A stretch of DNA of 64,000 bases from Ruditapes philippinarum (lineage: Eukaryota), in assembly GCF_026571515.1 (NCBI RefSeq), contig NW_026858667.1, forward strand, positions 1 to 64,000. The letters run 5' to 3'. The position numbers and the translations under genes were made by a program. The notes beneath the pieces were generated by a model. It was not told the DNA's origin, did not search any database, and saw nothing but the letters and a program-made list of their open reading frames with translations. This document shows, one piece after another, positions 27,269-64,000 of this stretch (positions are counted from its first letter, which is position 1; each line of letters begins with the position of its first letter).

Positions 27269-28441
27269 TTTTTCTGCTCACTGTTATCAAATTTACCGTA
27301 TAAATGAACTTTTTATCAACTTGTTAGCATTTAATCATTTCACATTAATAATGCAGTCAACTTTCCTCACTGTAAGATTGGTGCTGTAACTAATCAAATA
27401 ATATGTAACTTGATAATTAGTTTTTTTTCTTTACAATATCTTGCATGCTTACTAGTTTTGAATCCACAGTATTTCCGTTCCATCTGAATACAGCATTTAT
27501 CATCAGCTACACAAATACAAAACTGTATCAAAACTTGACTGCATCTGCATCACTTTTCACAATATCTACAAAAAGAAAAATAATAATAAACACAGCACAT
27601 ATTTGAATTAAGTCAAATATAACATGTATAATACAGCCATTTGTTCTCTTTCTTAATCTCTGGATTTGGTACAGAATGTTGCATTATTTGCATTCTGTGA
27701 GGAAGCTATTTTGCTTTAAAAGTATAAATTAAGTTACAATTAAAGCTACATTAAATAAATATGTACAAATATTTTTGATTTTGGCCTAAAAACCAAGCAT
27801 TCTACAGATTCATTAACCTTTTAACAGTCTTGTTGTAAATCTCATGAAAAATTGTTCATAAATAAGGATTTTAAACGAAAAACCCCTTGGTAACACTAAA
27901 GTTCGTATACAAATTTTAACATGCAAATGAAGATTATAAGCAGCTTGTGTATGCGCTACGTCACAGTGTTATAGCTGCTATTCGGAACACAACAAATATG
28001 AGATTTTCTTGTGCTAACACATTTTAACTGTTTAACTTCACAGTGCACTAGGCCTGAGGTTCAGTAAAAGTAGTCATCTCATAAAAAGATTAAATTTGTA
28101 TAAAAACATCCGTTACAATGTGGAAATATACCATTAAAATAGTACTGCTACTTATAGTCATGTTTGTTGATTGATGTACGGATAATCTGAAGGCGGAGTT
28201 TATCATGCAAACAGAAATTGTACTTCAAAATTCGCCACAATGAGGTTGTCCTTTTTTATGCTTATAAAACTCCTTTTGGTTGTCTGGACACTAAAATAAG
28301 ATCTTGAGTCGATATAAAACCTAATTTATTAATGAAATGTCGTTATTTCTGTTTTTATGAAATTTATTAAATGTATCTTTAAGGTCAAATTAATAATAAT
28401 GTTTCCTGTAACATACTATAACTTTGTTAAGTCATTATTAA

Positions 28442-43300: not shown

Positions 43301-46300
43301 TAATCCAAAACTTCATAAAAAATGAAATGGGTATAAATAAAGAAATGCAAATAGATAGAGCCCACCGTTTGGGTAGGTTCAATAAAAGAAATGTACGACC
43401 CAGGCCTATCGTCGTAAAGTTTACATTTTACAAAGATAGGGAACTTGTCAGAGTTGCTGCACCAAGCACATTAACCGGCACCAAATTCGGAATATCCGAA
43501 CAATTTCCTGTCGAAATAGAAAGTAAACGAAAAGTTCTATATGAAGTTGCCAAAAAAGCTCGTCAAAATAAACAAAATAAAGTTAGACTAGTTCGGGATA
43601 AACTTTACATCAACGACGCATTGTATAACACAGATAACATGCAACAGGAGCCGAAAAAGTACCAGAATGACAATGGCGCAAGGCCTAAAACATACAGAAA
43701 CTCAAATTTCAGAAATACACTTAACACAGACACAGTACAAAACAGATCACAAAAGAAAAGCAACGATGTAAATCCACACATTACAGACCATAACAAACCA
43801 TTTGTCATCCCGCTGAAAAACAAATTTGAAGAGCTAGCGTTTGCAACACCATTGAGAGAGATGTCTTCTCGTACTTCGTATGCAGGGAAAAAGAAGGCAA
43901 CTTCTCCACTTGAACAAGACTCGAACTTTAAAAAACAAAATACTTTTAACAGTGAATATGAATATGAGTCGCTGTCTGACTCTCAGCTTACACAGGAGCC
44001 AAGTGTTTCGCAACATTCACCGTCAATATTAAACAATGACATGACAAATACGTTACTAACAAATCCAACAAGTATGACGCTACAGCAATATCCAAAAGTC
44101 ACACTGCCTACGCCCCCGCATACCAATGCTGGATACAGTAATACGGATCAAGAACCCCGCTTTTTTTACGTGAAAACACGGGTGATTATTGCCAGACCAA
44201 CCATGACACAGATTAGCGTGAACCGGAAAACTGCTACTTAATTACGGACAGTATTGAATGCACAAATTGTAACGGTGTTGATACACAAAAATCTTTAAAA
44301 CTGTTATCTTTGAATGTTTGTGGATTAGTCACAAAACTTAAATGCCCTGAATTTCTCACTTTTATCAATAACTATGATATTATAGGTCTACAGGAAACTA
44401 AAACAGATGATACTGATGTAATTACTGTTCCTGGATTTTTAGTTCATATGTTTAATAGAAAAAAGCTTTCAAATTATCGATCAGGTGGAATGGCATTATT
44501 AATTAAAACACATTTAGCACCATATGTTAATGTTGAGAGTAATAACGAATGTAATCTGATTAAATTTTTCACAATTTCAAATGAAATATACGGTTCAAAT
44601 TGTAGTTCTCATGTAGAAGATCTTAAATGCGGAATTGTATATATACCGCCAGTTAGTTCGAAATATTCTCACAGTGAACCTTTTTTTGATATACAAAATG
44701 AAATCTTTAGATATTTTATAATCAGTAAACATTTTTTGTTGTTTGGTGATTATAATGCACGATGCGGTAGTTTAAAAGATTTTACGCCTGTTGACTTATT
44801 TATTTCTAACATGTACGATTTATTAACATTTACGTCTTATCTGTGATACGCAGGCTTTACATAACCTCTGATCCCCTTTCAAAATTCCATTTTATTTAGT
44901 TCCGCCCATTGTTTTCTCGTTTAGGGCACACGCTTTTTATTACTTGGGGACCATACGCCGCTTTTCATGGAATGGCACGGAAGTGTCACATTGAAGGTTC
45001 CATGATAACCGCCGTATGAACACATCTGCGGATGTTTCTAAATTCAAAATTTTACTATTTCATGTTTAAATGTTGAATTCTGCTTAAGCCGGTGCTAGGG
45101 GGCGTGGACGGTAACTTGCACTTTCCAGTACCGTCCATGAACAGGCTCAATCAAACCGAGCCTGCAACATTTTCAATTTTGTCGTGTTGGGCTTTCTTTA
45201 GGGATTCTGTATTTATCTATTTTACAATATGTTGAAAGCGAAGAAAATGAAATAATGAAAAATTTTGAGCTATTTGATGTACCTGTAAATAGAATATGTA
45301 TAGATAATACTGTAAATCATTATGGCAATCAGTTGATTGAACTATGTAAAAATAACAATATGTTTATATGGAATGGTAGAGTTGGGGATGATTGTTATAA
45401 TCCAAAATTAACATGTAAGAATTCGAGTACTGTTGATTATTTTATATCATCATCATTTGTTTTTGAGAATGTTTTAAATTTTAAAGTACATGATTTCTGT
45501 AGCTTATACTCTGATGTTCATTCCGGCTTAGAAGCAGTGATAAGCATCAGGCCTAAAAACAATTTTTGTATTCCTGATGAAATAATGTTTGAACCATTAA
45601 CTCTTAAAACTAAATTATGGGATAACAAGAATGCCCATACATTCTCCGAAAATCTTGACCTATCTAAAATCTCTGAAATTGAATTAATGCTTGATAAAGT
45701 ATTAGAAAAAAGCATAGTTGTACAGAACGACTTAGATGAAATAGTTTCTGACATTTCCACTCTGTTTACTAATTGTTCTAAACAGTCATTTGGAGAGATA
45801 ACTCAGAAAAATCAAAACAAAAATGTTAATATAAAAAATTATTTCCCATGGTTTGACAATTCATGTAAAAATATGCGTGATAAATATCACAAAACTAGAA
45901 AAGCTTACAACAAATATAAAACCCCCTATTTCAAAGAATTATTAAGGTCAATTAGTAAACAATATAAAAACACTTTACGCAAAGCGAATAATGATTTTAA
46001 TGAGAGAAAAATTGAAAAATTACGTATGTTAAAACACGCTGATCCAAAACAATACTGCATGGCAAAATATTAATGGAAAAAAACACTAAACAAGAAAACA
46101 TGGCTTCATTAGATAGTTTTTACGAGTATTTTAAAACATTGAATGAAGATGTAAACTCAAATGAAGAGTATCAATATAACGGTATAAGAAACTCTTTTAC
46201 TGAAAATGAGGACATAAATGGCCCAATTACAGAAAAGGAAATATTAGATAATGTTAAAAATCTAAAAACAAATAAATCACCAGGTGTAGATGAAATTGTA

Positions 46301-49300
46301 AATGAACAAATAAAAAATTCAATTAACTTAATGTTAAGTATATATAAGAAATTATTCAATATTGTTTTTGACAAAGGAGTAATTCCAGAAAGCTGGACAA
46401 TAGGAACTATAAAACCCATATACAAAAACAAAGGAAATTGTCTCGGAAAACTTTTTACAAGCATAATAAATAATAGGTTAAATAAATTTGCAAATGACTC
46501 AAACCTTATACATGAGACACAAGCTGGTTTTCGTAAGAAACATTCGACAGTTGATAATATATTCATTCTAAAGTCCTTAATCGATATTGTCCAGTCAAGC
46601 AGACGAAAACTTTTTTGTTATTTTGTAGACTTTAAGCAAGCATTTGACTCTGTATGGAGAATAGGACTATGGCAAAAAATAAGACAAGAAAATATTAATG
46701 GAAAATGCTTTAACGTTATAAAAAGTTTGTATGAAAATATTAAGTCTCAAGTAAGCACAAATGAAGGAAGCACCCCCTTTTTCGATTGTTTAATTGGGGT
46801 ACGACAAGGGGAAAATTTATCGCCATTTTTATTTTCTATATTTTTGAATGACTTGGAATACTTTTTACAAAGCAACGATATTAACGGAGTTTCAAGAGAT
46901 ACAATTATTGAAGGCGTACATGTCTATCTTAAACTTTTTATTTTGCTTTATGCCGACGATACAGTGATCTTCAGTGAAAATGAAATTGATCTTCAAAAGG
47001 CTTTAGATCAGTTTAAATTATATTGTGAAACGTGGAAATTAAATATTAATGTAAATAAAACCAAAGTTATGATATTTAGTAAAGGGCGTCCAAAAATAAA
47101 TAATGTTTTTAAAATTGGGCAACATGTCTTGGAAATTGTAAATGAATATAAATATTTAGGGATATATTTCAATAAAAGTGGTTCGTTTTATAAATCTAAA
47201 ATACAAATAGCTGAACAAGCTAATAAAGCACTATTTGCATTACTGAGGAAAATTAAAACTTTGGCTTTACCATTTGACCTACAAATTGAATTATTTGAAA
47301 AAACTATCAAGCCTATTTTACTGTACGGAAGCGAAATTTGGGGATATGGAAATGTTAATGTTTTAGAGAGAATTCAGCTGAAATTTCTCAAATATATATT
47401 TAAATTTAAAAAGTCAACCCCGTCTTATATGATATATGGTGAAACAGGTGTCCTACCACTCAGTGTGCATATCAAACACAGAGTAATTACATTTTGGGCA
47501 AGACTTATTGAAAATATCAATAGTGATGAACCAACAAAATTATCTTCAAAGGTTTATATTTTCTTACGTAAATTACATATAGATAATAAAGTTAAATCAC
47601 TGTGGATAGAAAATGTAAAACAATATTTATGTGAAACTGGTTTTTCTGGGATTTGGTACATAGAAAGTTTTAGCAATAGTAAGTGGTTGATACAAACAAC
47701 ATTTCAAAAGTTAAAAGATATTTACTCGCAAAATTGGCGTTCTGAACTAAATAACACTTCTGATACAAACGTTTACAAATATATCAAAAAGGATTTTTCT
47801 AGAAGCTGTTACATAGATAAACTACCAAGCAATTTAGCTAATAAATTATTACTATTTTTGACAAGAAATCATCGCCTTCCAATTGAAATAGGACGATGGC
47901 AGAATATACCTATTCAAGACCGTAAATGTAATATATGTAACGATATTGGCGATGAATTTCATTATCTTTTTGTATGTCCAGAATTTGAAAATGATAGAAA
48001 AATATACATAGATAATTTTTACATAAATAGGCCAAGTATGTTTAAATTTGTAAGCCTGGTCACATCGGAAAATACAAATAAACTAAAGAATCTTAGTATT
48101 TTTTTGTATGAAAATAATGCAACATTTTATTGGAACTTGATGTGTTTTACTAGACAATTTTAAATCATGTCTTAAATTACTATATGCGAAAGATAAGTTT
48201 ATGACCTTTTTTCTTTTTGTGTGTCTTTGATGATTGAATTTTGTAATAATTATTCTTTTCACTTACATATATATACCCAGCTCAATTTTATAGCTTAAAT
48301 AAATATGAATGTGTTAGGCTCTGTTCTTGGAAATCTCAATAGCCGTTTTCTACTACATTATGTTATGTGATTCTATGTATGTATTTATGCATTTATGTAT
48401 GTCACAATTTACTTATGTTTCCCGCTATTGTGGGACTTTTGCATATATTGAAAATAAAATCTGAAATCTGAAAACCATCATGTAATGATTACCGTGTTAT
48501 AGCGTCTTCTTTCGCCTCGCGTTCTTTTCCCGCTTCAATTTGTACATCCGTCACTTGTCTGTAGATGAAAGAATTCTGATTTTTATAATGCATATACGAT
48601 TTGATTAAATAAAATTAAAAACATTAGAATTTAAAATTAAATTAAATACTTAATATTAGATACAGTCTGGGCGCAATGACATATACTTTGTTGTTGTGTA
48701 TATATAAGGCGGAAGGTTCCCTTTGTGGCGGTTTTTACCTCCCAGTTTGGTTATTTCGATACAAATATTTACATGCCATGTTTGTTATTATGTAACATTT
48801 GTCATTTATGGCATTTAATAAATGCCCTATTTCATTCAACCTAAGTGTTGTGTTTTATCTCATACCAAACAAGTTCGTCTTGCCAGTTATATTTGCTTGA
48901 CCTGGACAATACATAAATAAGATTTTATGCCCACATAAAATAATTTATGTCATTGGTCCGTCCCTATTCTCATTACTGTACTGAATATTACCCGTTACGG
49001 GTCGGGTTTTAGCCAAGTACATCTTAGCCAATCAATATCAAGACCTAAATCACGTGATGTTAATTAACCAATGATTACATTAGATCTATCACAAAGAAAT
49101 AATTTTGGCGAGGAATGATTCTCGCCTTTGTTTTTTACTAAAATCCACCTCCTCCAACTCCATCCACCTCTTTCAATTTTTGATGTTGCTATAAATACCA
49201 TTTCATTTATTGTTCATGAATCAGTAGTTTTACTTATTGTTTATCTCAAAATACTTGTGCAACTATTCATCATGTACACTATATATATATATATATGTAT

Positions 49301-52300
49301 ATTGTTCATGCAAAAATTTTTAAAACTAGTCAATGTTATATTATCTCTTTCAAAATTTTTTATTTGTTGTCATAAATACTTATGATCTAGTCATATGAAA
49401 TACACTTATTCATGTATAGAATGTTTAAAATATTTTTCAAGGATGTAGCCCTACATCAAGTGGTACTAGACACAAGATGAAAGGGCACAAGTTTCCAGAC
49501 TATGGTTTTTCCTGGGCGAGTCGACCACGATTTGGAAAAATATTTTTTATTTAATGGTTTTTGATCAGCAATCCATATTATTATATTTGTGTAGATGGTT
49601 TTTAGTTCAACTTTGTCATCTATTACAACTTTTGCTAAGATTGTTATCTATTTCATAGTTTATTTTGATCTTGTGCTTAATCATTACATTGCAATGTATA
49701 TCATAATCTGGCGGTTTTTACCTCCCAGTTTGGTTATTTCGATACAAATAATGTACATGCCATGTTTGTTATTATGTAACATTTGTCATTTATGGCATTT
49801 AATAAATGCCCTATTTCATTCAACCTAAGTGTTGTGTTTTATCTCATACCAAACAAGTTCGTCTTGCCAGTTATATTTGCTTGACCTGGACAATACATAA
49901 ATACAACATACAGAAACAACAATAACCACATCAGAAGCACAACGCACTTACTTTTTCAATGCATCTTCCTTCACATTAAATTCCTTTTCCATGTCTGCTT
50001 TCAACACCTCCACTTGACTGAAATATGAAATAGTTTACACAATGTACGTATGCTTATATTTATTATATACAGTTTAAAGTTATAAAAGTCCAAATTCGGT
50101 AGTAGAAAAACTTTCGAAATGAACACTTATTAATGTACTGGAGTTAAAGGAAATGTATTTCGGAAATGTATTCCGCGGCAATGATTTGATGACATCGCAC
50201 TTAAAGTCATGCTTCATTCTAAAAATATCGTAAAAGCAAAACATATTGAATGAATTCAATTTTTTTTCAGGAATCGATCACCTATGTGCCTTTATTATAA
50301 TACTTATTAATGAAATTTTGATAAATATTTGTATAATAAAATGCATATTTTTATTTTACATATCTCCAATGAAAAAAATATTTTTCACATTTTTCACTAC
50401 AGTGAAACATATTTTCCGAATTTTCACTGGTGTCTGGACTAGTTTCTTTTAAATTCAGCCAATACACAAAATCAAAAAAATCTTTCGAACTGTGAGCTCA
50501 AGAAACAGAAAAAAGTATATGATAAACAGAAAATTCAAGTATTTTTTATAAATACAGGATGTAGTTTCATCTCGTGGTATGAAAATTTAATGTATCACGA
50601 TTTTAAGAAGAGTAAAAAGATTCAAGAGTAGAGTAATAATTTACATAATATGCGCGATTGATGATTGATTTTTTTCTGTATGTATTATCATATTTCTACT
50701 GCGTTACTAACACAAAGAAGGGTATTTTTAATATTTTGATCTGATTATGATTATCTTTATGGGTTGTATAAGCACTGTTTTTAATATGTAACATTCAGAA
50801 ACAACAATAACAACAACAGAAGCACAACGCACTTACTTTTTTAAAGCATCTTCTTTCACCTTGAATTCCTTTGCCATTTCAGCTCTCAACGCCTCCACTT
50901 GACTGAAATATGAAATAGTGTACACAATGTGAGTACGCTTTATAACTTCTAAGTATATTTGTTATAAATATATTTTAGATTTATAAAATTTGTGATAGGT
51001 AGGAAACTTTCGAAATGAACACTTATTGATGTTACGCTTAAAGTCATGCATCATTGTAAAAAATATCGTAAAAGCAAATCGTATTGAATGAATTCAATTT
51101 TATTCAGGAATCGATCTCCTATGTGCCTTTATTATATGCTTATTAATGAAATTTTGAGAAATATTTATATGATAAAATTCATATTTTTATTTTCCATACC
51201 TCCATAGTTTTTTCTTAATTCAGCCAATACACAAAATAAAAAAAAAATCTTTCGAATTGTAAACTCAAGAAACAAAAAAAGTATATGATAAACAGAAAAT
51301 TCAAGTATTTTCTATATTCAAAAATTATCATATTTCACTCGTGGTTACCGCCACTCATGAAATATTGATTTTATTTTATAGACCTTTTTACAATGCGATT
51401 TCTCCATAGCAACCGATGCTGCATTTTGCGCTTGCGCATTCTGCGTAGGGCAAAAGCGCAATAAAGATAGACTATATTTAGCGTTGTTGAAGGCTTTAAA
51501 AGACGTGATTATAAGTTATGACACCCAGAAAACAGAAAATTTGGGATGAATTAAAGCGGTTAGTACTTAAAACGTGAATTGATATTTATAATAGATATAC
51601 AAAATTAGCGGGACTAATAATTCAATGACCAAAAGTCCTCTGTTCAAGGTTTCATTTCATCAGTTAAAGATAAATTTTATTACCGATGTATTACATAATA
51701 TTACACAATATTGGTATGCCTTTGAAAGTGGATCGGCAAGGCAGTAAGTGTCAAACGGATTGACACGTGACCGGCTGTTATTTGCCAACTATAGTGTACA
51801 ATATCATTCAACCGGGACGTTTTAGTACCATGACATAGTTAATCACTTAAAATTATGATAATCGTATTTTAAGTTACTTTTATTTATACCAGTCTCATCA
51901 ATGTTTATTAATTTTGTGAAGTGACAATTAGTATACGTGACATGCATTGTCATGTGTTACGAGGAACCGGATAAAATGTGTCTTATTTCACCACCCATCT
52001 TAACTTCTCAAGAGTTTGAAAAATTATTTAAATATATTTATGTGACTTAAAACATTTCTGTTTGGCATTCCAGTAAATTGGATAAAGGATAAAATTAGGT
52101 AAACTGAAAACTAAAAATGCATTATCATGTGTTCCGACTTATTACAGAATGATAATTAAACTCGATTTTATATGTTATTTTTTATATAAAATTTCTCTTG
52201 CTTTTATATGGACAATTTCAACAACAATTAAATTGACTTCTTTATTTACCAATATACATATTTCCACATTTTTTTACAACAATTATTTCGATGTCAGGTC

Positions 52301-53528
52301 CGTGATCGTAAGGCGGAATCCTTCAACAAACATCTTTCCCATGCCTTTTTATGACACTCTTGGCCACAAAGCTATAAAAGTATCTTTTGTGTTTATATTA
52401 AAAGCTATTTTATATGATTTTCTAATTTTTACCTTAAACTAACTCGGAATTGTCTATGAATTTTCTACTACATTTCTATTAAGGACTATGCACTTTTTGC
52501 CCTACGCAGATGGCGTATGCGCGAGAAAATACTACTTCCGGTCAATTTTTCATAGCAACGGACCGCGTCGTAAAAAGGTCTATACCACTTGGTGATAAAA
52601 AAAAACAACATTATTTATAAGAAAAGCTTAAACGTCCTCTATCTATTTTTCATTCTAACGGCAAATTTTAACCTACCTTGGTAATAAAACTTCCGGTTCT
52701 TGTTCAGACTTGATGAAATGTGTCCTGTAATATAAGTGAACATTTATGTTTGACGGAATTGATTGATTTGATTTATAACTTCATGATGATAATGATACTT
52801 GTATAAAGCTGCAAAACCAAGCTAAATTGGACTCAAGTTGCATCTCGTCCTGTAAAGCTGTATACACATCCAATATAATTCAGTATTGTACTCTTATAAC
52901 ATTATTCGTTTAATACAGGCTGTAATTCGTTCAACATATAAAAAGGTATATTTTGTTNNNNNNNNNNNNNNNNNNNNNNNNNNNNNNNNNNNNNNNNNNN
53001 NNNNNNNNNNNNNNNNNNNNNNNNNNNNNNNNNNNNNNNNNNNNNNNNNNNNNNNNNNNNNNNNNNNNNNNNNNNNNNNNNNNNNNNNNNNNNNNNNNNN
53101 NNNNNNNNNNNNNNNNNNNNNNNNNAACTCGTTTGAACTCCATGAGGCCCTCAACAAGCATCAATATAGATTTAACATATTCAAACTATCAAAATACATA
53201 AAATGTTACATACATGTTATTTTAAAGACAGAGTTATCAATTTATAGTATGGAATTGACGCTAATTATTATAATAGAGACCGGTGTATGATAACATCTTA
53301 AGTATAAGGTTTTAAAATGGTTTACAGATTTAGCTGACTTGATATAATGAGGAAGGCCGTTCCAAATACAAGATATGACTTACGAAGTTGTTAATATTTG
53401 GTCTTGCTTTGTAAAGTTGAAAATACAGTTAATACATACCCTAAGAATATTCCTGCGACAATAGCAGTCAAAAACAAGAAGCGAGATGCAATCGTTTCTG
53501 AGTCAGCAGGTACACTGTCACCGCCCAT
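40362..53528 (-). CDS. Mieap (SPATA18 C-terminal domain)-like protein with N-terminal hydrophobic segment and three 22-aa repeats
   Basis: Phase-matched GT-AG exons 53528-53440, 52724-52677, 50902-50837, 50017-49952, 48558-48493, 42619-42418, 42050-41961, 41099-41010, 40646-40362. Motifs RLS...RDNNPDIVDLSDPNRPEKIAGMYSELYSNQWTDA and C..ICRLMVIQDPPM...Y..KG..VDIVVWPALLLKEGGPMVSQGVV match the Mieap domain. An N-gap in intron 1 could hide an exon. Confidence 0.85.
42847..44241 (+). CDS. LINE ORF1 (coiled coil plus L1-type RRM/CTD)
   Basis: Heptad-rich N-terminus, RSMRENLLFYG, IDRAHRLG, RPRPIVVKF, ISEQFP, LVRDKLYIN. Confidence 0.85.
   Translation: MLDNHTRAWQVVENTMSAQNEKLMRMESLLSEVTNIKKDIVKTNTKVYDIENNMKFLQTKITDYDETVQHYSDLCDDITMNNRDTDAKVRQLETEIDKLKQNQENIQMQIKHTDDSIVDVKWRSMRENLLFYGHPESPYSQNEKERENCEMIIQNFIKNEMGINKEMQIDRAHRLGRFNKRNVRPRPIVVKFTFYKDRELVRVAAPSTLTGTKFGISEQFPVEIESKRKVLYEVAKKARQNKQNKVRLVRDKLYINDALYNTDNMQQEPKKYQNDNGARPKTYRNSNFRNTLNTDTVQNRSQKKSNDVNPHITDHNKPFVIPLKNKFEELAFATPLREMSSRTSYAGKKKATSPLEQDSNFKKQNTFNSEYEYESLSDSQLTQEPSVSQHSPSILNNDMTNTLLTNPTSMTLQQYPKVTLPTPPHTNAGYSNTDQEPRFFYVKTRVIIARPTMTQISVNRKTAT
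44290..48163 (+). pseudogene. LINE ORF2 (APE endonuclease plus reverse transcriptase), disrupted
   Basis: SLNVCGL, LQETK, SGG, VYIPP, GDYNAR, STVDY, SDVH; KSPGVD, QAGFR, FVDFKQAFDSV, GVRQGENLSPFLF, LYADD, YKYLG. Broken by a ~400-bp insert (44830-45228), a frameshift at ~46073 and loss of the NYRPI motif near 46436. Confidence 0.9.
48726..49903. repeat. Pair of ~194-bp direct repeats (48726-48919, 49709-49903)
   Basis: TGGCGGTTTTTACCTCCC...ACAATACATAAATA, near identical. Confidence 0.85.
49905..51315. repeat. Tandem duplication (~885-bp period) carrying one 66-bp exon per unit
   Basis: CAGAAACAACAATAAC..CAGAAGCACAACGCACTTAC and the downstream intron sequence are repeated at ~49910 and ~50796. 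Confidence 0.85.
51380..52581. mobile_element. 1.2-kb non-autonomous TIR element, ISL2EU-type ends
   Basis: AT-AGACCTTTTTAC ... GTAAAAAGGTCT-AT; inner IR TCTGCGTAGGGCAAAA / TTTTGCCCTACGCAGA; CATAGCAAC near both ends. Confidence 0.7.
52958..53125. other. Assembly gap (168 N)
   Basis: Run of N. Confidence 1.
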
Positions 53529-53618
53529 TATCTTCGTTCGTTAGAATGACTTTTATAGTATACTACAATGTAATTTAAATGTACAAATAGAGAGTATTAA
53601 TACATCTTTAATGCTTAA

Positions 53619-53982
53619 AGGCATATTATGCCTCAGAAATGAATACATATTTACTTCTTTAAAAAGGTCAGACATGAGTTTTATAATGTTTATTAAACTT
53701 TAAACAATGTTTTTATAGCATGCCACATGCTTGTTAACTGAAGAAAATAGCGCTAAATGTTAAATATTATGTTATACAAGTAGCTAAATGTAAACAAAGT
53801 AGTATTTTTACTTCCATACAAAATATTAAATCATTATAAATGTACTAATTGCCAAAAATCAACAGAAGAAAAAGACTGTTTAGGTAATTGGCCAGTAAGA
53901 AACGTACTGGAAACAATAAAAAAAATACCAAAAAATAAAATTGAGAAATAAAATTAAAGTATTTCTGATGCATAATGGGCCT
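53619..53982. mobile_element. Kolobok-type MITE (TTAA TSD, AGG termini)
   Basis: TTAA-AGGCATATTATGCCTCAGAAA ... TTTCTGATGCATAATGGGCCT-TTAA. Confidence 0.75.
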
Positions 53983-54238
53983 TTAAAGAAAAGATTGAAA
54001 TTAATTGCAATTAAAATTAGTTGCACTAATTAGATATTAACTTTGATCTATAGATTGTATAGAATCTTTTTAAATCTTTAATTCAAACTAAAAGTTGATG
54101 ATTGAATTACTTAACATTTGTATTAATCAAGGCGGTAAAATAAAAGCTAAATGCTTAGTCAGCATATTCTCTAATCTCTTCAAATAGACACTAATTCTCG
54201 TACTAATACTAGTATACTAATATATTGCATATAAAGTC

Positions 54239-54733
54239 AAACCGAAAGTACATACATCAACCCAAACAATTTTAATCAATATTGAAAACAAATATTTCAA
54301 CGAATCGATTTCCTAACAAGATTAACCCGATATAAATGTTAAATGTAATTCTATTTATATACATGCGATATAGTAAATTGAGTAAATATATATGAAGTTG
54401 CAAATAAGGATTTTTTTTATTAAAACCGAAAGTTGGTTATATCTTACCATTAAACAAATGATGATGTTTACTCAAACGGAGAGGCAGATTTAAAAACTAA
54501 CAAATGAGAGATTTACAAAATACTTCAAGCAAATTCATCTTAAATATAAAAACGAAAGTACATTGAAAAACATATTACATGTTCGATATATTTATTTCTT
54601 ATCTTAATATAGATGGTAAATTTATTTATCTCCGGTACGTAAATAAGAAATGATACTCACGTGATCGAGCTGTGTCTAAGACGTATATTTTTCTTTCAGA
54701 TTTGTTTTGTTGTCCAAATTTACTTTCGTTTTT
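54239..54733. promoter_or_regulatory. Cluster of four IRF-E/ISRE-like motifs AAA(A/C)CGAAAGT
   Basis: AAACCGAAAGTA 54239, AAAACCGAAAGT 54422, AAAAACGAAAGTA 54548, TACTTTCGTTTTT 54721. A minus-strand GTGAGT donor at 54660 and an acceptor at ~53563 suggest a 5'UTR exon of the Mieap-like gene here. Confidence 0.6.
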
Positions 54734-56678
54734 GGTCCGGGTAAATTAAATGTTTAAAATATTAATGCTTCTAAGATTGTATTACACTTTACCTCTGTAT
54801 TAAGTCCATGGTTGGCTGCCTTTGATTTATAAATACATGTATTCTTGTATTACATATAAGCGCAAAGGTTTACAAATAACCTGAAATATTATAAAATGGT
54901 ATTAGTTTAAATGCTAAGGAAAAGGTACTCAAATAAAGTTGTTTATATCTCTAAAATTTGATAGTGTTTTATCTTATTAATTTTGATGGCTTGACTTGAG
55001 ATTCAAGTATTGCCTTATAAAAGAGAAGAAAATACACATGGTAGTTTTACATTGCCTTACTCATGCAAATACTGGCTAATTAACTAGTTAATTGTTTTAC
55101 AAAGAGCGGTATTAGTAGTTTACATTCTAGATCACGACAGTAAGCCACTTTAAATTAACCAGAGCACATTTCAGTTCATGAGCAAGATGTCAAGAAGTTT
55201 ACTAGTTACTGTACTAAATGAAGAAACTGCAATAGTTACTTCTGTACATGCCAGAACAGAGATACCGAGTGAATGACAAAGGGAATGTCTCGGCTATTAT
55301 TCATAATAACCTCGGACTTAATACGGATTGAAAGTAGTTCTACCACGTGGTTTTAGATGTATTTTATTTAGAATTTTAGCAAATTTATGGGCACAATTAT
55401 TCGTCACAAATGGTTGGTAAAATACTTTACAAGAAGGATATTAATTTTAATTAAGTATATATCAAATAACAAGCTTTATAAAATGTTCAAACTGATCTGC
55501 AAGTCTTAAAGTTATACAAAATATTAAATCTGATCCATCATTTCCACTGATTTGTATTGTTAATATAATCTGTATCACAACCCGGTTTTCATTTGACTAA
55601 CTGCCCCTCTCGACTGAAATAAATTCACATAGAACGCGATTAGGTTCTAGCTACAAAGTTACAACAAATTTGTGTGTAAAGAATCGTTTCCATCTTGTTT
55701 CTTGCCGCCAATATTTTGATGGACATGCAGAGTTGGGTAGTGCAGTTGACAGTTTTTGTCCCGTTTCTTTTTAAATCCTCGATGTAGAGTAGAGATACAT
55801 TTAACTTTGATTTTTATTTGGTCTCATCCGAAAGACAATTATAAGTTTTATTGGAAAAACGGCGGATGGAACCTGCAACAACTGCATTACTAGCGTAGCA
55901 CATAACCACTGTCCCATGGATTCGCTCCATATCTTTATTCTGTATGATTTTCGGGTATTTACATATATACATGGACAAATCTTTGTTTTATCTTGGGAGC
56001 CATATTGATTAAATGCGTCTTTGAAACACGACTGTTTAATAAAGCAGATGAAAATGACAATTTTATGAATACATGATAGAAAAAAAGTATTGGCATAATA
56101 ATAATAATTACAAAATTAGCGAATTCAAGCGAATTCAAAATTTGTGTTTTTTATATTGATAACTTACATGACTTATGCTTGACAAATTTGCATTTCCGCT
56201 TTAATTGTTCACTATTATCTTCAAGAAAATAACACATAATTATATCATCCTGAAAAGTTGTTACAAATTACAATTGGACCCTAGTTTGTTTATAATGTAA
56301 ATTAGAACACGGAAGTATTATTTGAAAAACGTTTGGTACAATAAACGGGCCGATAAATTTTGACCCAAAATCACACTGGAAAAGCCTACTTTCGATTTGC
56401 ATGCATTTTATCAAAGGTGTCTGAAAAAGACTAATATGGAATTTATTTGGAAAATCCTTGGTATAGTTTTCAAGATTTTTGAGATCATTTTAGTTTTAGA
56501 TCATAGTCAAAATTTGATAAGGAATGTTGTATAAAGCAAGTTTTATAAAAAGTCATTTTCATTAATTGTAACTTTTGGTAAAAATTTAAATATAAAGATA
56601 AAGTAAACCTACTGAAAAATGGATTGTGTGTGCAAATAAAACTGTTTTGCATTTCAGTATAATCAACTCTACACAGTC

Positions 56679-59600
56679 ATGGAGGGAATGGTAAGATTTA
56701 CTTGATTTTTTTTAATTTAAGAAAGAATACATAGTTTAAAAAAACAACAACAATAAAACAAACAAACGAGCAAACTTGTCTAGCTGCATTTTATAAATTT
56801 ACGTTAAAAAGCTGGGAATGTGTACAACATGCATATAATATTTTTAAAAAAACTATACGATCACGTTGTTTTTAATTTACCACATCTATACGTTTTTTCA
56901 TAAACCATTAATAAAATGCATGCAAAGCGAAAGTAGGATTTTTCATTGATATTTATCGTAATTATATAAAATATTAGAATGAAACCACCCGTAACAAAAC
57001 GTCTCCTTCCTTTTGCAATGATTTCGTGCACGTGTATACCTCAACGTTGCTAGGAACTACATGTATACAAGAGTCATCTTCTATGGTGGTTTTTTTTGAC
57101 AGATTTTAATGAAAGTCTTATTTATGTATTTTGGCTGAATGAAATATTGTGATATGAACAGAGAAAGTTATAATTTATATAATTTAAACACGGAACTTAC
57201 AATTTACGTAAATTAAAAAAGAGAGGTCAAAATTTACAAAAATAGCCCATACTGCTTTAGTCCGCAGATAAATATTTGTACTACAAAATCAGACATTTAT
57301 CGCACATAACACGTAAATTATAAATTCAATGTTGATCTTTGAACTTTTCTTAAATCTTAGTAAATGTATGTTAAGTTTGATTTTCTTAAAATGGTTTGGC
57401 TTATCTGGTGGTAAGAATCTTTAAAAGTAAAACACACATTTATACAATCATATTTTATCTCGGGGGTTGCGTTCTGTAAACGTTGCTTTGCCTTGTTGAT
57501 CTTTATTCTCATGTTTTAATATTATTTAAAATCAAGCACAGAAACACCTAAATTTTTATATATTGATGTGTAAAATGACATCACCGGTTATGGCTTTTTT
57601 TCTTATACTAGTATATAAATACATTTCATTAAATATAAAACATGTTGATACGTTAATATGATCATAATAAAGGGTTGTTACCCTATATGCGTCGAGCCGT
57701 CATATAATTACATTTTTGTTTTACAGGTACTTGAGATAAAGGAAAAGGTGGAGGAGATGGAAAATTTCTTATCATCGTTGAAGAAACGTTTTGATAAACT
57801 ATTTGACGAATCTGGTTGCCAAGGAGATCTTTGTAGCTGGTTTGTTTAATATTCTATATGCTCTTATTGTTTTGTTGCTTAGAGTAATGATATTATCAAG
57901 TGGGCTTCACAAAATAGCGATAGAACATAAACACGTCTTTCCTTTACAAAATTCATATTTATTCTCTTAACCCATTACGTCATATACATGCCTTTTAACG
58001 CCTTTTTCACCCCCCCCCCCCCCGCATTTTGTTGTCTCAAATGTTGAAAAAATGCCTTATTTAGGCCCTAAACACTTGTTTTTGTTTGAGAAATGTTGTT
58101 AAAAAAGTGACCACTTTTTCGGCGCGGCCCCCAACCAAAGATACATCAGGGGGTTGCCAGAAGGGGGATGCGCCCCCTTCTGTTTGGGGGGTTTGAAGGG
58201 GGACAGAGTCCCCCACATTGCCAAGAAAATTTTGGACTTGTGAGAGGCTATAAATGATCACAGATTGATCATAAGGTAACGTGTAACCAACGCTGAAAAG
58301 CATTTGACTCTATCTCAATCCATTGAGAAGTTGCAGCACTTTGAAATCAATTATGATTGAAAAAAAAACAACACAAAATAGTGATTTTTGGCAATTTTGA
58401 GATGTCCCCTCGTTGCCATGGTTACAGAAAATTTAAGCCTGAGCATGTTGTTGCAAGGGCAATGGTCCAGTCAATATTGTGCCAAGTTTGATTAGTGTTG
58501 AAGCAGTTTTTATAGAATTATAGCAATTTGAACTTGTAACGGGAGACTTTTTAATGAAAATAGCCATTTCATGAAGTAATGGGTTAAAGTGGATCGGTTA
58601 TATATGACCATTCAGCATTTGCGACTTATTGAAGTTAGATATCATCCTTCAAATCGCATGTATTTTTGTATTCGTTGCCTTTTTACGAGCTTTTCTGATT
58701 GCCCTGTGTAGCCCTAATGTTGTCGGGGGACTGTGTACGTTCCAAATCCATTAATATTATATTCGATTTCTTTTTAAAATGCTTATATTTTGTAACATTT
58801 CTTTTGCAGCATTACGTTTTACAAAGGGACAGAATCACGTATGTTTGATTTTTTTTCTCAATATACTTTAAAGTGTATATCGAAAATGATTATCTTGTCA
58901 AACGTTTTGTGTTTAAATTGCTATAATATACTAATAACTAATCTTGAATCTGCTGAATTTGTGTCATGGATTAATCTTGAGCAGTCCATTCAAAGTTTAA
59001 GGTGTCAATATAAAAAAAAAACAAAAAAAACATTGTAATAAAATTGAACTAGCAACATCAGTGCAATTTTTTGTTCTATACTGGTGGCAAACGCTAATCA
59101 CTTTCTGTTCCAGCAATTAAGGGTTAAAAAAACTTAAAACTTAAATGTACACTTTAAATGTCGACATGTTGTTATAAAAGGCCAAAGTCAGTATGATTTA
59201 AATTACTACATATAAAACATGTAAATCATTTTCCTTCCATTTCGGTCGGATACAAGAAAGTGAAAGACTGACAATTCATAAATTTGTCTTTAACGTATTA
59301 AGGAACTGATATTTTAAGATAATGGCATTTTTGTTACATTGAGCACATGCGTGGTGTTTAAATATTTCATACAAATAAAAACAAGTGTAGAAATAAGAAA
59401 CATAACTAACATTATGTGATGGACAGATTTTTCGTCGAGTTTATATTGGAAATATGATTGTTTTCTCATTTTCAGAAATGAAGGATTTGTTCCGACAAAT
59501 GAAAGGAATTAACAATAGATTATCAGAAAAGGATCTTGAAGACAAAGCTCGAGATAGAAAATTAGAACAATTAAGTAAAGAAATTGCAAATATGCGCACC

Positions 59601-62600
59601 GCAGACACCGCTACTTCTTCTAAAACAGTCATTCCTAAAATAGACAGTCGAAAAGAAAAAGCAGATATAGAACCAAGAAACAAAGCGCCAAATGTAACTA
59701 ATAGGTCACGTCAAACTAATGAAAGAAATGATGGAAACAGATCAGGTGAAAGAAAAGGCAGTAGCTCAGAAAGGCGACGATCAGATTCGCGCGGTAACCA
59801 TGACAAAAGTTTCGACAGTGATAATGAGCAGAATGATACAAATAAAAGACTTGAACTACGACCAGAGTCTCGTGGTGAAAAACGTGAACAGCATAAACAG
59901 AATCCTGGGTCCAGAAACAGGAACTCTTATACACAATCTGCTAATCTTCAATTACCAAGGGATGAAGAGCCAAAGTAATATAATTTGAAATCAACAAAAG
60001 TAAATTCTGTAAATCGGTTTAAGTTAAAAATGATTGTTAAATGTTTTTAAAATAATATAATTCTTGAGTACACTTGATTACCTTTCAACACACTTTAAAA
60101 TTAACGTATACACATTTAAATATCACTTAAAGCGTCCGTATTCAATGTTCCTAAAAATTGATTCAATATTAGAATATAAACTAAATTTGATAATATTATT
60201 ATAACACAATCATTTTTTATTACTTTCAGTCGTGACAATATACAGAAGCCAAACTTTAAACATTCGACGGAAGTTGGTAATTGATATGATATTCCTCTTT
60301 TTTGCATAGTTTGTAGTGAACAAAAAATTACTGACCGGCCAAATACCTAAATCATCTTTTTCTTGTGTTGTTTCTTGACAGTTAGTAAAGTTAAAGTGAT
60401 TCAGTATTTTGTAAGGGAGTCAAAATACAACTTTGTTTAACTTTTCCTACTTTTATGTAAAATAGATTTATACTTAGCATTATGTAAACGTAATTGAGAT
60501 CATGTTTGCTCTTTCTAAAATCAATTTTTTATTCGTTTCTGAGGCATAATATGCCTTTAAAATGATAAGGAACGTTAACTTGACTAAGTTCGGGGTATTT
60601 TGAACTTATATATATTCTGTTTCACTACTTAAAGGTTTACCACCAAATAATTGGAGTTTGTATTATAACTAATTTATTTCTTGTTTGATTCGCAGCTTTG
60701 AGGCAGCCGAGTTCTTCTGCTACTGCGTCTGCTTTAGAACAAGCACGTGGCGGTCTTCCAGTGGTTGAAAGACAAAAAGAAAAAGAGTATTATCTATCTC
60801 CTGATGTTTGGGAAGTAGAGGCTAAAGGAGAACTAATTGCATGTAAGAAAATTAACATTATTTTATATTAAAACATTCAGCTGGTTACCTGCAATTGTTC
60901 ATTATATATGTATTTGTAAGAAGTATAATTTGAGACAATCGCTTTTTGTAAACATATGAACGTAGAACGTCCTGCATTTAGTGATCTTGTGATCTAGTGA
61001 TCTTTGCAAACGTAGTAATCAGACATTCTTACTGATTTCTGGCAATAATATAAGTATGACGCTGGTGATTGGAATTATTTACGTGTCACAAAGATATATT
61101 TTTTTTAAAAATTCATTTCAAATTAAATAAAAACACGAACCCTTCATAAGGAGTCAAATTAAATGTTGAATTCAACTCTTCATATACATATGAAGGGTTG
61201 AATTTGCCTTTAATCTGATACAAATTTTGATTAACCTGAAATGAATGTAAATACATGTAAGCTTTTTTTCGGGTCTCAATAAACTTAAATTACATTGGGT
61301 TATAAAATAAAGTGTCTAAGAGTTTTTCTCTTTCTACAATGTGAGTTCCTGTTTTTCTTGTTCTAGCACAAAAGACACCATTACGTAAACTTGAAAAAGT
61401 GACAACAATACTTTTGATTGACACGTCAGAAAGTATGGCAGCTGGTGACACGTGGCGTCAAGTGACGACATTTGTGAACGATTACGTTGATGGTAAATTG
61501 CTTATTAATCATAGTGGTTTCCACAATATTGTTGATAAATTTATGTCATTGCATTATATAAATGTTCTTATATATTTCGTTCTGCTGAGCGAATGTGATG
61601 AGGACATTAGAAATCAACGACACTCTTATGTTTGATGAAGTTGATACACTAGCAGCCTGGCAGACTGAAGTTTGCAGCTTAGCAGTCTTAAGATAAATAA
61701 CGAAGATACAAAGAAATGCATTATTAGCACTTCCATAGATCATTATACGTTTTTTCAACATGATGATCTTTATACATTTGTAGTTTAAGATGCTAAACTT
61801 CAAACTCTTTCATTCTGACGTTCAAAATTTGTGAAGCAAGCAGTAATGATCTAAGGGAGTGCTCATAATGCATTTCTGATCGTTTGAAATCATGTTTGCA
61901 ATATTCTTCGTTTTCTTGAGGCTGTTCAACTGCCGACTTTACGAATATTGAACACTGCAGTTCGCATACAATATGCTCATAGCGTTTTCTTTTATGTTTT
62001 GGTGTAAAATTGAGGTTTGACCCAATGTCAGAACTATAAATAATAGACGCACTTATAATGGTTGGCATGAAATTATTGTGGTGTGGTGTTTATATTTTTC
62101 GTATATTTATACTGTTGTATTGCCACACAACTGCCGTGATACCACAAAATCGTGTCTAAACGATTCGTTTATGTGTTGTTGAGGTCAGAAACAATAAAAA
62201 CTATGTCGCTCTGTGACAAATTAGCTTGCACAAGTAATATGTATGTTCTTTCTATAACATAGGGCTAGAAGAGATGTATACAAAACACAAAACTGATGAA
62301 CATTTAGCATTAGTGACCTTTGGAGCACAAACACGATGTCACCAACGCTATACGAACGACTTTAGTTTAATACGATCAGCATTTAGTAAGTGAACATTTT
62401 ATTTTTCAGCACTTTTTTTTGATTAAGCAGAAACGTCAATATCACTATGAATCCTCGTTGGATCGTTGTTGAATACCTCTTCATGTCTTTCATTTTCCAC
62501 CTTGATTCTTTTGATTTGACGATTATATGAAAGATTTATCTAAAAATTACGTATTTGACCTTTAGAAAAAACCTGAAAGCCGCATACATTGCCGATCATA

Positions 62601-63846
62601 ATTTTTAGATGACATTTACAATTAAAGCAAACTGTTACTGTTCTACTGAGAGTGGAATAAAAGAAGTCTGAAATATATCTTTTACCGACATATAACGATA
62701 TATAATGCCCTTATGCATTGTTGTTATATTCCATTAACATCTTTTCGTATTTTAGACAAGTTACAACTTGGAGGACCTAGCCCTTTACACGGAGGGTTAA
62801 TGATGGCAGATGCTGTGTCTCTTACATGCGAAAGTAAGTCATTTACTTAGTGGTTGTTTTTATTAACAAATCTTTACGCGCAAGAATTCCATTGTTATTA
62901 ATCTAGAACTTAAAAAATGGATATGTTCTGAACCGGTATTTACTAGTAAACCATTACATATTAATGCAAACAAGACGGCCCTACTATGAAGACAATCATG
63001 GTCGGTTACGTGGCAACGAAACCATTACTTTTAATCATAATGCATAACGCATTGCAATTTTCGACATTTGATTTTTTGGACATTTTTTATTCCTAATTTA
63101 ATGTACCTAAAAACAAGACTAGTTCAGTACTGTTATATTACACACCCCTCTTCCGTTATAACCAATTCGAGTATACCTCTTCTTCCCACCAGATGTCATA
63201 TTTCGCCATTATCTAGGCATTTCGACAACAACTAATCACTTAGTAGATATCTATACATCACAACAGCACGTGTGCTGTGTGGCAGCCGTAAAAGTTACCA
63301 TGTACTTTTCTTCAATTTTGTTACATAATTTTGGTCGTTTGGGATAATTTGGTCCAGCACATTCAAATGTACCGCTCAGGGGACATGAGGGATATTGAAC
63401 TTTTTTATTATCCCGGATGTACAGTTTCAATCAAGTGGAGTCTGCAATTTTCATTTTATTTTACTGTTTTATTGCTTCCATGGGATTACATTTTTCCAGA
63501 TATATAATGCCGAAATATTTCTCTATATATTGCATGCATTTATCCTGCCAGCTAGTCTGGGTTCCACTATGTCGATTTTTCATTTGCTTCCGTTTGGCAA
63601 AACGCGATCGAGTGTGAAAAAGCGCGTATATCATGAATAAATAAAAATATCAACGTCTGAATGCCAGGTTACCTGACAGCTTCAATACAGTAATACAATA
63701 TATTTTCTATATTTTCAGAGGACCTCATATCTCTACGGAACGGGTTGATGATATATACGAAGATAATTCTTATTACTGACGGTGAACCAACTGAAATCTG
63801 TCTCCATAGAGGTCCAGATATTCCAGACCCGAAACAAATGGCCGAG
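56679..63846 (+). CDS. Intracellular VWA-domain protein (coiled coil, charged low-complexity linker, then VWA); continues beyond window
   Basis: Phase-matched exons 56679-56690, 57727-57839, 58810-58838, 59476-59974, 60230-60276, 60696-60842, 61367-61492, 62263-62385, 62756-62833, 63719-63846. VWA motifs ILLIDTSESM (MIDAS DxSxS), LALVTFG, LGGPSPLHGGL, IILITDGEPT. The first three exons are less certain. Confidence 0.85.
57971..58583. mobile_element. piggyBac-type MITE
   Basis: TTAA-CCCATTACGTCAT ... ATGAAGTAATGGG-TTAA. Confidence 0.8.
60325..60556. mobile_element. Second, truncated, inverted copy of the Kolobok-type MITE at 53619
   Basis: TTTCTGAGGCATAATATGCCT-TTAA end; 60332-60370 matches 53860-53899 in reverse complement. 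Confidence 0.7.
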
Positions 63847-64000
63847 GTATTCCTCCAGTTTTTATAACCCTCTCCACTGTCGTAACTTTTTTATATGTAA
63901 AATCACCTATGTTTATTTTAGATAGGTGTATGAAGTTTTGGACTTCCACTATTTTGGACACGTGTGGGTTAGCGGCATGTACAGTCTTGATTGTGTCATA

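What the first reader, a model, noticed from the sequence alone, without database searches (positions are those of the whole stretch)
53529..59266. Head-to-head Mieap-like and VWA genes around a dense IRF/ISRE-like motif cluster: candidate interferon-like response module
Seen: the start codons diverge 3.15 kb apart; four AAA(A/C)CGAAAGT motifs fall within 500 bp (54239-54733), two more flank the VWA start exon (56387, 56925), and GAAAGTGAAAG is at 59256. Established: IRFs bind AANNGAAA / GAAANNGAAA, bivalves have IRFs and a dsRNA-induced antiviral response, and mammalian HELZ2 is interferon-induced. Inference: the two uncharacterised genes, and perhaps the helicase at the window start, are co-induced invertebrate immune effectors. 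This is my best candidate for an undescribed system here, but it rests on motifs alone.
Basis: partly seen in the sequence, partly recalled or inferred. Interest (0 to 1): 0.7.

Follow-up and report, generated by a model that had tools for sequence, protein, structure and literature searches.

The report
Interferon-type switches on two clam genes
Two back-to-back, unstudied clam genes each carry, just inside their start, rare DNA words of the kind that sit at the clam's known antiviral genes, so they are likely switched on by IRF immune regulators, though through separate starts rather than one shared promoter, and induction is untested.

Summary
The motif cluster is real: four AAA[AC]CGAAAGT sites in 494 bp of single-copy DNA, against one per 158 kb genome-wide. 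No repeat explains it. The same word lies just upstream of clam viperin and 3 of 9 scored RIG-I-like genes. Other pairs of it lie near TRIM-like, TNF, cGAS-like and CARD genes (7 of 30 loci, against 0 of 20 controls). At those other loci the word completes itself, unasked, to the full ISRE (G before it in 23 of 48); at this locus it does not (0 of 6). Spliced RNA contigs change the anatomy. The cluster lies in intron 1 and leader exon 1a of the membrane-anchored MIEAP-domain gene, not between the genes. The VWA gene, really a 755-aa VWA + MIB/HERC2-like gene, starts 1.3-1.7 kb away. Its two sites are the arms of one 61-bp inverted duplication. The 59256 site is at chance level and the helicase link cannot be tested. 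Best reading: two adjacent, likely IRF-regulated immune genes with separate starts, likely also linked in Mercenaria. Binding, induction and effector function are untested. A new member of a known kind.

The parts
54239..54249 (+). IRF-type site 1 (AAACCGAAAGT), in intron 1 of the Mieap-like gene
   Evidence: spliced across in RNA contigs
54423..54433 (+). IRF-type site 2 (AAACCGAAAGT), intron 1
54549..54559 (+). IRF-type site 3 (AAAACGAAAGT), intron 1
54722..54732 (-). IRF-type site 4 (AAAACGAAAGT), at the 5' end of leader exon 1a and in intron 1 of the exon-1b isoform
54296..54304 (.). single GAS-like TTCNNNGAA between sites 1 and 2; one such word per few kb is expected by chance (my estimate), not counted as evidence
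54661..54735 (-). non-coding leader exon 1a of the Mieap-like gene (donor GTGAGT); true start not shown
   Evidence: run X6 contig 54670-54732 joined to 53562; splice signals
54793..54850 (-). alternative non-coding leader exon 1b (donor GTAAAG); 5' end approximate
   Evidence: run X3 loose end at 54793 reads the end of exon 2
53440..53562 (-). exon 2 of the Mieap-like gene with ATG (53528) and hydrophobic N-terminal segment
40362..54850 (-). Mieap-like gene (NCBI LOC132753897; 311-333 aa): N-terminal hydrophobic helix, long coiled coil, MIEAP domain PF16026
53615..53986 (.). multi-copy MITE-like element (26-nt terminal inverted repeats) in intron 1; holds no motif
55282..55361 (.). about 80-bp dispersed repeat between the two 5' ends; holds no motif
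56368..56428 (+). left arm of a single-locus 61-nt inverted repeat; holds site 5 (56388-56398, -, AAATCGAAAGT)
56894..56954 (+). right arm of the inverted repeat; holds site 6 (56924-56934, +, AAAGCGAAAGT), in a VWA-gene intron
56168..56379 (+). likely upstream leader exon of the VWA-MIB gene (no GT donor at this place in the assembly copy)
   Evidence: X1 contig 56168-56318; X6 joint 56379 to 57725
56553..56690 (+). first coding exon region of the VWA-MIB gene (ATG 56679)
   Evidence: X3 contig 56553-56693 joined to the next exon; P0004
56679..64000 (+). VWA + MIB/HERC2-like gene; continues to contig position about 74570, open for 755 aa over 18 exons (the NCBI model stops at 396 aa)
59256..59265 (+). 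GAAAGTGAAA in a VWA-gene intron; chance level

Best explanation
Four rare IRF-type DNA words lie in the first intron and leader exon of a MIEAP-domain gene, and a duplicated pair lies at the start of the neighbouring VWA-MIB gene; clam IRF proteins likely bind them and likely switch each gene on from its own start during the antiviral or inflammatory response. Shown: the sites, their rarity, single-copy status, position relative to spliced exons, and the association of the same word with viperin, RLR, TRIM-like, TNF, cGAS-like and CARD genes. Inferred: IRF binding. The sites are monomer-type AANNGAAA sites with the clam-preferred 3' GT(A), spaced 126-184 bp apart, so additive binding by several IRF molecules is more likely than one ISRE dimer. 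Also inferred: activation after dsRNA or virus sensing through the RLR/MAVS or STING route described in oysters, and therefore co-induction of the two genes. The proteins' tasks are weaker inference: a membrane-anchored coiled-coil MIEAP protein, and a VWA adaptor with MIB/HERC2-like substrate-binding domains but no ligase domain found.
For: Rarity. Single copy: (1 match). Flanks of sites 1-4 are unrelated, 24-35 of 80 identical. Genome-wide clustering: 143 same-strand pairs against 5 expected and 9 for a CG-to-GC control word; 44 of the first 100 listed rows lie outside one 53-bp satellite. Neighbours: 7 of 30 pair loci have B-box/TRIM-like, TNF, Mab-21+OTU or CARD+Neuralized domains within 10 kb against 0 of 20 control loci (Fisher p 0.02), mostly with the pair upstream or in the first intron. 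Positive control: AAANCGAAAGT within -1.5/+0.5 kb of the first coding exon in 4 of 14 antiviral-family genes (viperin 1 of 1, RLR 3 of 9, IRF 0 of 4; binomial 4e-4 against background). Unasked completion to GAAANNGAAA in 23 of 48 de-duplicated pair sites (background 16%, p 2e-7). Four Mieap paralogues on C12669 each have one strict site 2-4 kb upstream; a VWA paralogue has one. Three clam IRF loci show the WKANFRCAL helix. Oyster IRFs are poly(I:C)-induced and activate ISRE reporters (PMC5557890 passages). An oyster nidovirus encodes a MIEAP homologue (PMC11848433 passages).
Against: None of the six sites has the G of a full ISRE (0 of 6, against 23 of 48 elsewhere), though the viperin site and two RLR sites also lack it. 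Against the Ras-gene control (1 of 20) the 4 of 14 is not significant (p 0.08). The pair-locus test falls to p 0.09 if the Ig-domain control locus is counted as immune, and the 'immune' label is my judgement. 6 of 9 scored RLRs and 4 of 4 IRFs lack a site in the scored window. Two of four Mieap arrays have no strict site in 50 kb. No expression data under challenge were available. No Mieap-named row was found in the oyster, mussel, pearl-oyster or anemone supplements searched (old annotations may hide them). IRF knockdown did not blunt cGAMP induction in Nematostella (PMC8713801 passages). Published readings tie bivalve Mieap to stress and gill cilia (PMC8382680, PMC5549309 passages).
Confidence: 0.55

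Rival explanations
1. One shared control module: the four-site cluster works as a short-range enhancer for both genes, and the pair is kept together for co-induction.
For: Head-to-head layout with 5' ends only 1.3-1.7 kb apart. The closest named Mercenaria relatives, LOC123563272 and LOC123563266, lie on a contig of the same length with gene numbers 6 apart, and P0011 falls in the same membrane-anchored subfamily (97/98).
Against: The sites lie inside the Mieap transcript and none lies between the 5' ends. The VWA gene has its own pair. Gene numbers show neither adjacency nor orientation. P0011 is not shown to be the one-to-one orthologue, since the clam paralogue P0012 is as close.
Confidence: 0.2
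2. The sites are bound, but they set constitutive or tissue-specific expression (haemocyte or gill) or repression, by an IRF2-like factor or by another GAAA-binding factor such as Blimp-1, rather than virus induction.
For: Both transcripts are present in ordinary RNA-type runs of several studies. Mieap domains are enriched in mussel gill (PMC5549309 passages). Some pair loci are non-immune (kinesin, ferroportin, zf-tcix).
Against: The word marks viperin and RLR starts. Blimp-1 prefers AAG before the spacer (recalled, not tested) and these sites have AAA. The treatment of the runs is not on record.
Confidence: 0.15
3. No function: chance, or remains of a repeat.
For: Many genome-wide copies of the word lie in a 53-bp satellite and in a larger repeat whose 185-bp core ends in the word. 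Sites 3 and 4 are convergent and 184 bp apart. The motif was chosen after seeing the sequence.
Against: 54000-55100 is single-copy. Sites 3-4 do not align to that repeat above shuffles (z at most 1.4, three copies, both strands) and a profile of it does not hit the cluster. In a scan of all 11-mers with one free position, this was the only 4-in-505-bp cluster between 39 kb and 64 kb of the window.
Confidence: 0.1

Closest known systems
Vertebrate IRF-E/ISRE promoters of interferon-stimulated genes (consensus AANNGAAA and A/GNNGAAANNGAAA; PMC5861432, passages)
   Same: All six sites match AANNGAAA; they cluster at the 5' end; the same word sits at clam viperin and RLR genes.
   Different: No site here has both GAAA halves; they lie in intron 1 or the leader; no vertebrate-type interferon is involved; binding is untested.
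Oyster RLR/MAVS-IRF and cGAS/STING-IRF antiviral response (PMC5557890, PMC8218723, PMC5869526; passages)
   Same: Supplies the factors: IRFs induced by poly(I:C) that activate ISRE reporters; the clam genome has 4 IRF loci.
   Different: The passages seen used mammalian ISRE reporters; they define no native bivalve element and name no MIEAP or VWA-MIB target.
Nematostella poly(I:C)-induced genes with IRF/STAT/NF-kB motif enrichment (PMC8476169, passages and one supplement search)
   Same: Invertebrate antiviral genes carry IRF motifs in a window that included the first exon and first intron.
   Different: That work rests on measured induction; here only motifs and controls.
Bivalve MIEAP (OG24) and Mib-herc2 (OG314) expansions (PMC8382680, passages)
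   Same: PF16026 over its cut-off; at least 143 matches in this genome; the VWA+MIB_HERC2 layout is a mollusc family.
   Different: That paper reads Mieap as a stress and mitochondrial-quality family; here a membrane-anchored member carries IRF-type sites.

Membership tests
IRF element / ISRE | IRF half-site AANNGAAA | tested here: met
   6 of 6 sites (consensus from PMC5861432)
IRF element / ISRE | full dimer core GAAANNGAAA | tested here: not met
   0 of 6 have the first G; 59256 has it but at chance level
IRF element / ISRE | enriched over background and not repeat-borne | tested here: met
IRF element / ISRE | close to a transcript's 5' end | tested here: met
   3-486 bp inside exon 1a's 5' end, about 120-600 bp inside exon 1b's; contigs do not show true starts
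IRF element / ISRE | same word at known antiviral genes of the species | tested here: inconclusive
   4 of 14, p 4e-4 against background but p 0.08 against 1 of 20 Ras genes
IRF element / ISRE | bound by an IRF | not testable with these tools
   needs EMSA, ChIP or CUT&Tag
Interferon-stimulated-like gene | induced by dsRNA or virus | not testable with these tools
   runs are untagged contigs without levels
GAS+ISRE or kB+ISRE composite promoter | STAT or NF-kB site beside the IRF site | tested here: inconclusive
   one TTCNNNGAA at 54296, no kB site in 53500-57200
Bidirectional promoter | shared element between two divergent starts under about 1 kb apart (definition recalled) | tested here: not met
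   RNA ends 1.3-1.7 kb apart, no site between them, sites spliced out of the Mieap transcript; true starts could lie closer
Transposon-derived IRF site | homology of the flanks to a repeat family | tested here: not met
   a very old repeat is not excluded
MIEAP family (PF16026) | domain over the curated cut-off | tested here: met
   81.6 bits against 27
Mieap/SPATA18 orthologue (p53-induced mitochondrial quality control) | orthology and mitochondrial function | not tested
   one of at least 143 domain matches; no vertebrate sequence in the tree
Mollusc VWA + MIB_HERC2 family | VWA domain followed by MIB/HERC2 domain(s) | tested here: met
   VWA_2 over cut-off; MIB_HERC2 under its cut-off in the exon and in P0005 (17.5 and 24.5 against 33.5 bits); nearest atlas cluster at 0.95 carries MIB_HERC2 in 89% of members
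HELZ2-like helicase | HELZ2 domain layout and an IRF-type promoter | not testable with these tools
   only the last exon (AAA_12) is on the contig

The most novel reading that the evidence does not exclude
Part of the bivalve MIEAP expansion is an IRF-controlled antiviral effector family: membrane-anchored members such as this one are switched on with viperin through a native clam element (G)AAA[AC]CGAAAGT(A), are kept next to a VWA-MIB/HERC2 adaptor gene across venerid clams, and are in conflict with viruses, one of which (an oyster nidovirus) has captured a MIEAP homologue. The element would also give a genome-wide list of clam interferon-like target genes.
Probability: 0.3. Interest if true: 0.75.

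Novelty: new member of a known kind. Interest (0 to 1): 0.5.

Why it matters
Bivalves mount an interferon-like response, but most of its effectors and the native DNA element are undefined in the papers I could see. If right, this gives a testable clam IRF word, calibrated on viperin and RLRs. It also assigns two large expanded families of unknown function (MIEAP, VWA-MIB/HERC2) a place in antiviral defence rather than only in stress or mitochondrial upkeep.

Tried and rejected
1) Repeat origin of the cluster: rejected. 2) Sites 5-6 as ends of a MITE family: the 56340-56990 stretch matches only itself, so a local inverted duplication. 3) A frameshifted Mieap allele, suggested by a one-base insertion in an X6 contig: dropped, because the NCBI model splices before it and is open. 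4) Co-expression from runs: no RNA holder is on record and contigs give no levels. X2 and X22 showed no cover of the Mieap leader exons and X4 none of exon 2; these blanks were not used as evidence. 5) Fold search of a confident model (pLDDT 89.5): no Foldseek match at E 0.001 or better, GrpE rows only at E 2.4-2.8; the wide search returned only generic coiled coils, Z at most 7; the MIEAP domain alone was not folded. 6) Promoters of the closest paralogue array (C12670) were only partly covered: 1 strict site in 7 short loci; not interpretable. 7) A strict RLR hit inside a coding exon (C8610) and one in an RLR intron (C2032) were not counted; 9 of 18 RLR matches were not scored because the first coding exon was not located or not fetched. 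8) Literature: ten searches listed no paper that, by title, abstract or the passages I opened, ties Mieap or VWA-MIB genes to IRF control in molluscs; one search returned 0 papers. Supplement searches found no Mieap-named row; one file was cut when stored. Oyster rows named MIB2 (6) and HERC2 (3) rise modestly after poly(I:C) but cannot be mapped to this family. 9) No complex prediction was sent; binding between the two proteins is not claimed. 10) Earlier-finding look-ups near the place, by sequence and by one word set returned nothing.
Full report
Setting. The window is the first 64 kb of contig C7154 (184 kb) in a 1.408-Gb assembly. Protein records that match its exons are named Ruditapes philippinarum.

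Observation. Four AAA[AC]CGAAAGT sites lie at 54239, 54423, 54549 (+) and 54722-54732 (-); the only other copy in the window is at 23626-23636. With the fourth base free there are 7 copies against 0.36 expected. The genome holds 8889 copies, one per 158 kb; 20 control loci gave 3 in 392 kb. Four in 505 bp has P about 4e-12, and about 5e-5 such clusters are expected genome-wide. The stretch 54000-55100 matches only itself. The flanks of the four sites are unrelated (24-35 of 80 identical). Sites 5 and 6 are the arms of one 61-nt inverted repeat found only here. GAAANNGAAA, the pattern at 59256, occurs 11 times against 6.8 +/- 2.6. The helicase is a last exon only, Pfam AAA_12.

The genes. The minus-strand gene is LOC132753897 (311-333 aa): a hydrophobic N-terminal helix, a long helix 45-122 and a MIEAP domain at 81.6 bits. 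At least 143 MIEAP matches exist in the genome. In a 31-row tree, whose bootstrap had not fully settled, it groups (97/98) with four proteins that all have a hydrophobic N-terminus. The plus-strand gene is annotated at 396 aa, but 18 exons read open for 755 aa and follow the 774-aa Mercenaria protein P0005, a VWA + MIB/HERC2-like layout typical of molluscs. The best-named Mercenaria relatives are LOC123563272 and LOC123563266, on a contig of identical length with protein accessions 10 apart. That suggests linkage; adjacency and orientation are not shown.

Where the sites lie. RNA-type contigs (RNA by guess, but spliced at GT-AG) join exon 2 (ending 53562) to a leader at 54670-54732 in run X6 and to a leader from 54793 in run X3. 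Sites 1-3 are therefore intronic, and site 4 sits at the 5' end of one leader or in the intron of the other. VWA-gene contigs begin at 56168 (X1) and 56553 (X3), with joints to the next exon from 56379 and 56693. Between 54851 and 56167 there is no AAANCGAAAG[TC]; an 80-bp repeat lies there. Contigs cannot show true starts, but the splicing across sites 1-3 does not depend on that. The layout is two genes, each with sites just inside its 5' end, not one cluster between two starts.

Is the word an IRF element in this clam? (a) Same-strand pairs 20-200 bp apart number 143, against 5 expected and 9 for a CG-to-GC control. Of the 100 rows listed, 56 belong to one satellite and 44 do not; 43 rows were not listed. 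(b) I fetched about 10 kb on each side of 30 of the 42 other non-satellite rows, one or two per look-alike family, and scanned 132 of 173 selected ORFs (low-complexity and antisense duplicates dropped by eye). Seven loci have B-box/TRIM-like (4, two of them paralogues), TNF, Mab-21+OTU or CARD+Neuralized domains; others have DZR, DUF4559 or KY domains; kinesin, ferroportin and zf-tcix are non-immune. Twenty loci around copies of an unrelated MITE (100 of 100 ORFs) gave 0. Fisher p is 0.02, 0.03 with the paralogues merged and 0.09 if one Ig-domain control is counted. The pairs mostly lie upstream or in the first intron. (c) AAANCGAAAGT lies within -1.5/+0.5 kb of the first coding exon, judged by eye from ORF lists, in viperin (1 of 1), RLRs (3 of 9 scored, of 18 matches) and IRFs (0 of 4; one has a strict site 3 kb upstream). 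That is p 4e-4 against background and p 0.08 against 1 of 20 Ras-family genes, two of which look like one gene. (d) In 48 de-duplicated pair sites the base before the word is G in 23 (background 16%) and the base after is A in 30 (33%). The word thus completes itself to the ISRE core GAAANNGAAA (PMC5861432, passages). Genome-wide the G form is 3847 against 755 reversed, partly from repeats. The six sites here have no G (0 of 6) but 5 of 6 have the A; the viperin site and two RLR sites also lack the G. (e) Four Mieap paralogues on C12669, the most similar of four arrays in the N-terminal MIEAP exon, each have one strict site 2-4 kb upstream of their first recognisable coding exon; two arrays have none and one has one. 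A VWA paralogue has one 5.6 kb upstream of its large exon. (f) Three of the four IRF loci show the WKANFRCAL helix in the pieces printed; that it is the DNA-reading helix is recalled.

Repeat rival. Convergent pairs number 37 against 4 in the control, and most are a repeat with a 185-bp core ending in the word. Sites 3-4 are convergent and 184 bp apart, so I tested them: the alignment to three copies is within shuffles (z at most 1.4) and a profile gives no hit at the cluster.

What is known. All papers were seen as passages or supplement rows, none whole. Oyster IRFs are induced by poly(I:C) and activate mammalian ISRE reporters (PMC5557890; review PMC5869526; PMC8218723). Nematostella poly(I:C)-induced genes are enriched for IRF motifs in a window that includes the first intron (PMC8476169), yet single IRF knockdowns had no effect on cGAMP induction (PMC8713801). 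Mieap and Mib-herc2 families are expanded in bivalves and read as stress genes (PMC8382680); Mieap is enriched in mussel gill (PMC5549309) and listed among shared differentially expressed genes in a snail-schistosome study (PMC13619432). Crassostrea gigas nidovirus encodes a MIEAP homologue (PMC11848433). A shrimp preprint (10.1101/2022.12.18.520954) shows IRF-driven Vago4 and did not bear further; its supplements were not requested. Earlier AI notes on ISRE-like elements at cGAS-like and IFI44-like genes of this genome agree but are not independent support.

Mechanism. Most likely, clam IRFs activated after nucleic-acid sensing bind several monomer-type sites in the first 500 bp of the Mieap-like gene and a duplicated site at the VWA-MIB start, and raise both transcripts (0.55). 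A shared short-range enhancer (0.2), constitutive or repressive binding (0.15) and no function (0.1) remain. The fold search gave no functional lead.

Verdict. It is a new member of a known kind, interest 0.5; the bold reading, MIEAP proteins as IRF-controlled antiviral effectors, has probability about 0.3.

Noticed in passing
window 56679-64000 and L024/L025 (contig to 74570): The NCBI model of the VWA gene (396 aa, named 'eIF5B-like') is truncated and misnamed; the exons read open for 755 aa with MIB/HERC2-like domains.
   Followed up: yes
window 42820-48163 (+): LINE-type retrotransposon ORFs inside an intron of the Mieap-like gene, on the opposite strand.
   Followed up: no
window 49951-50019 and 50836-50904 (-): A duplicated 66-bp coiled-coil exon, used singly or together in the three isoforms, so stalk length varies by 22 aa.
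   Followed up: partly
window 16159-16785 (+) and 23258-23659 (-): Harbinger-type transposase and Myb/SANT ORFs; the lone strict motif at 23626-23636 lies at the Myb/SANT ORF's upstream end.
   Followed up: no
window 24602-27277 (-): Single-exon C2H2 zinc-finger ORF of about 890 aa with a degenerate tandem-repeat tail.
   Followed up: no
G000 C4899, C5951, C10424, C10764 (L048-L059): A 53-bp satellite whose unit carries GAAACCGAAAGT, i.e. arrays of full ISRE-like words.
   Followed up: no
L241:1499-1683, L242 (C5087, C6473): A repeat of at least 700 bp with a palindromic 185-bp core bounded by convergent GAAAACGAAAGT words, at least 17 copies; a possible carrier of IRF sites elsewhere.
   Followed up: partly
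L076/L077 (C3465:119000-119500): A TNF-family gene with five AAANCGAAAGT sites in 1.3 kb, four around the end of its first coding exon.
   Followed up: partly
L036, L042-L045 (C1922, C4068, C4232, C4265): Paralogous IRF-type pairs with an adjacent NF-kB site; one lies 8 kb upstream of a DUF4559 gene.
   Followed up: partly
L094/L095, L092/L093 (C6660) and L098/L099 (C7858): Clusters of 2-4 sites upstream of genes with no informative Pfam match: further candidate IRF targets.
   Followed up: no
L163 (C5435:116781-116787): Tandem AAACTGAAAGTGAAAGT about 1.1 kb upstream of an IRF gene's first coding piece: possible autoregulation.
   Followed up: no
L230 (C12642:528594-533090): A 1499-aa retroelement-like ORF at the 5' part of an RLR gene copy.
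   Followed up: no
L025:2600-4100: A minisatellite of about 60-bp units downstream of the VWA-MIB gene.
   Followed up: no
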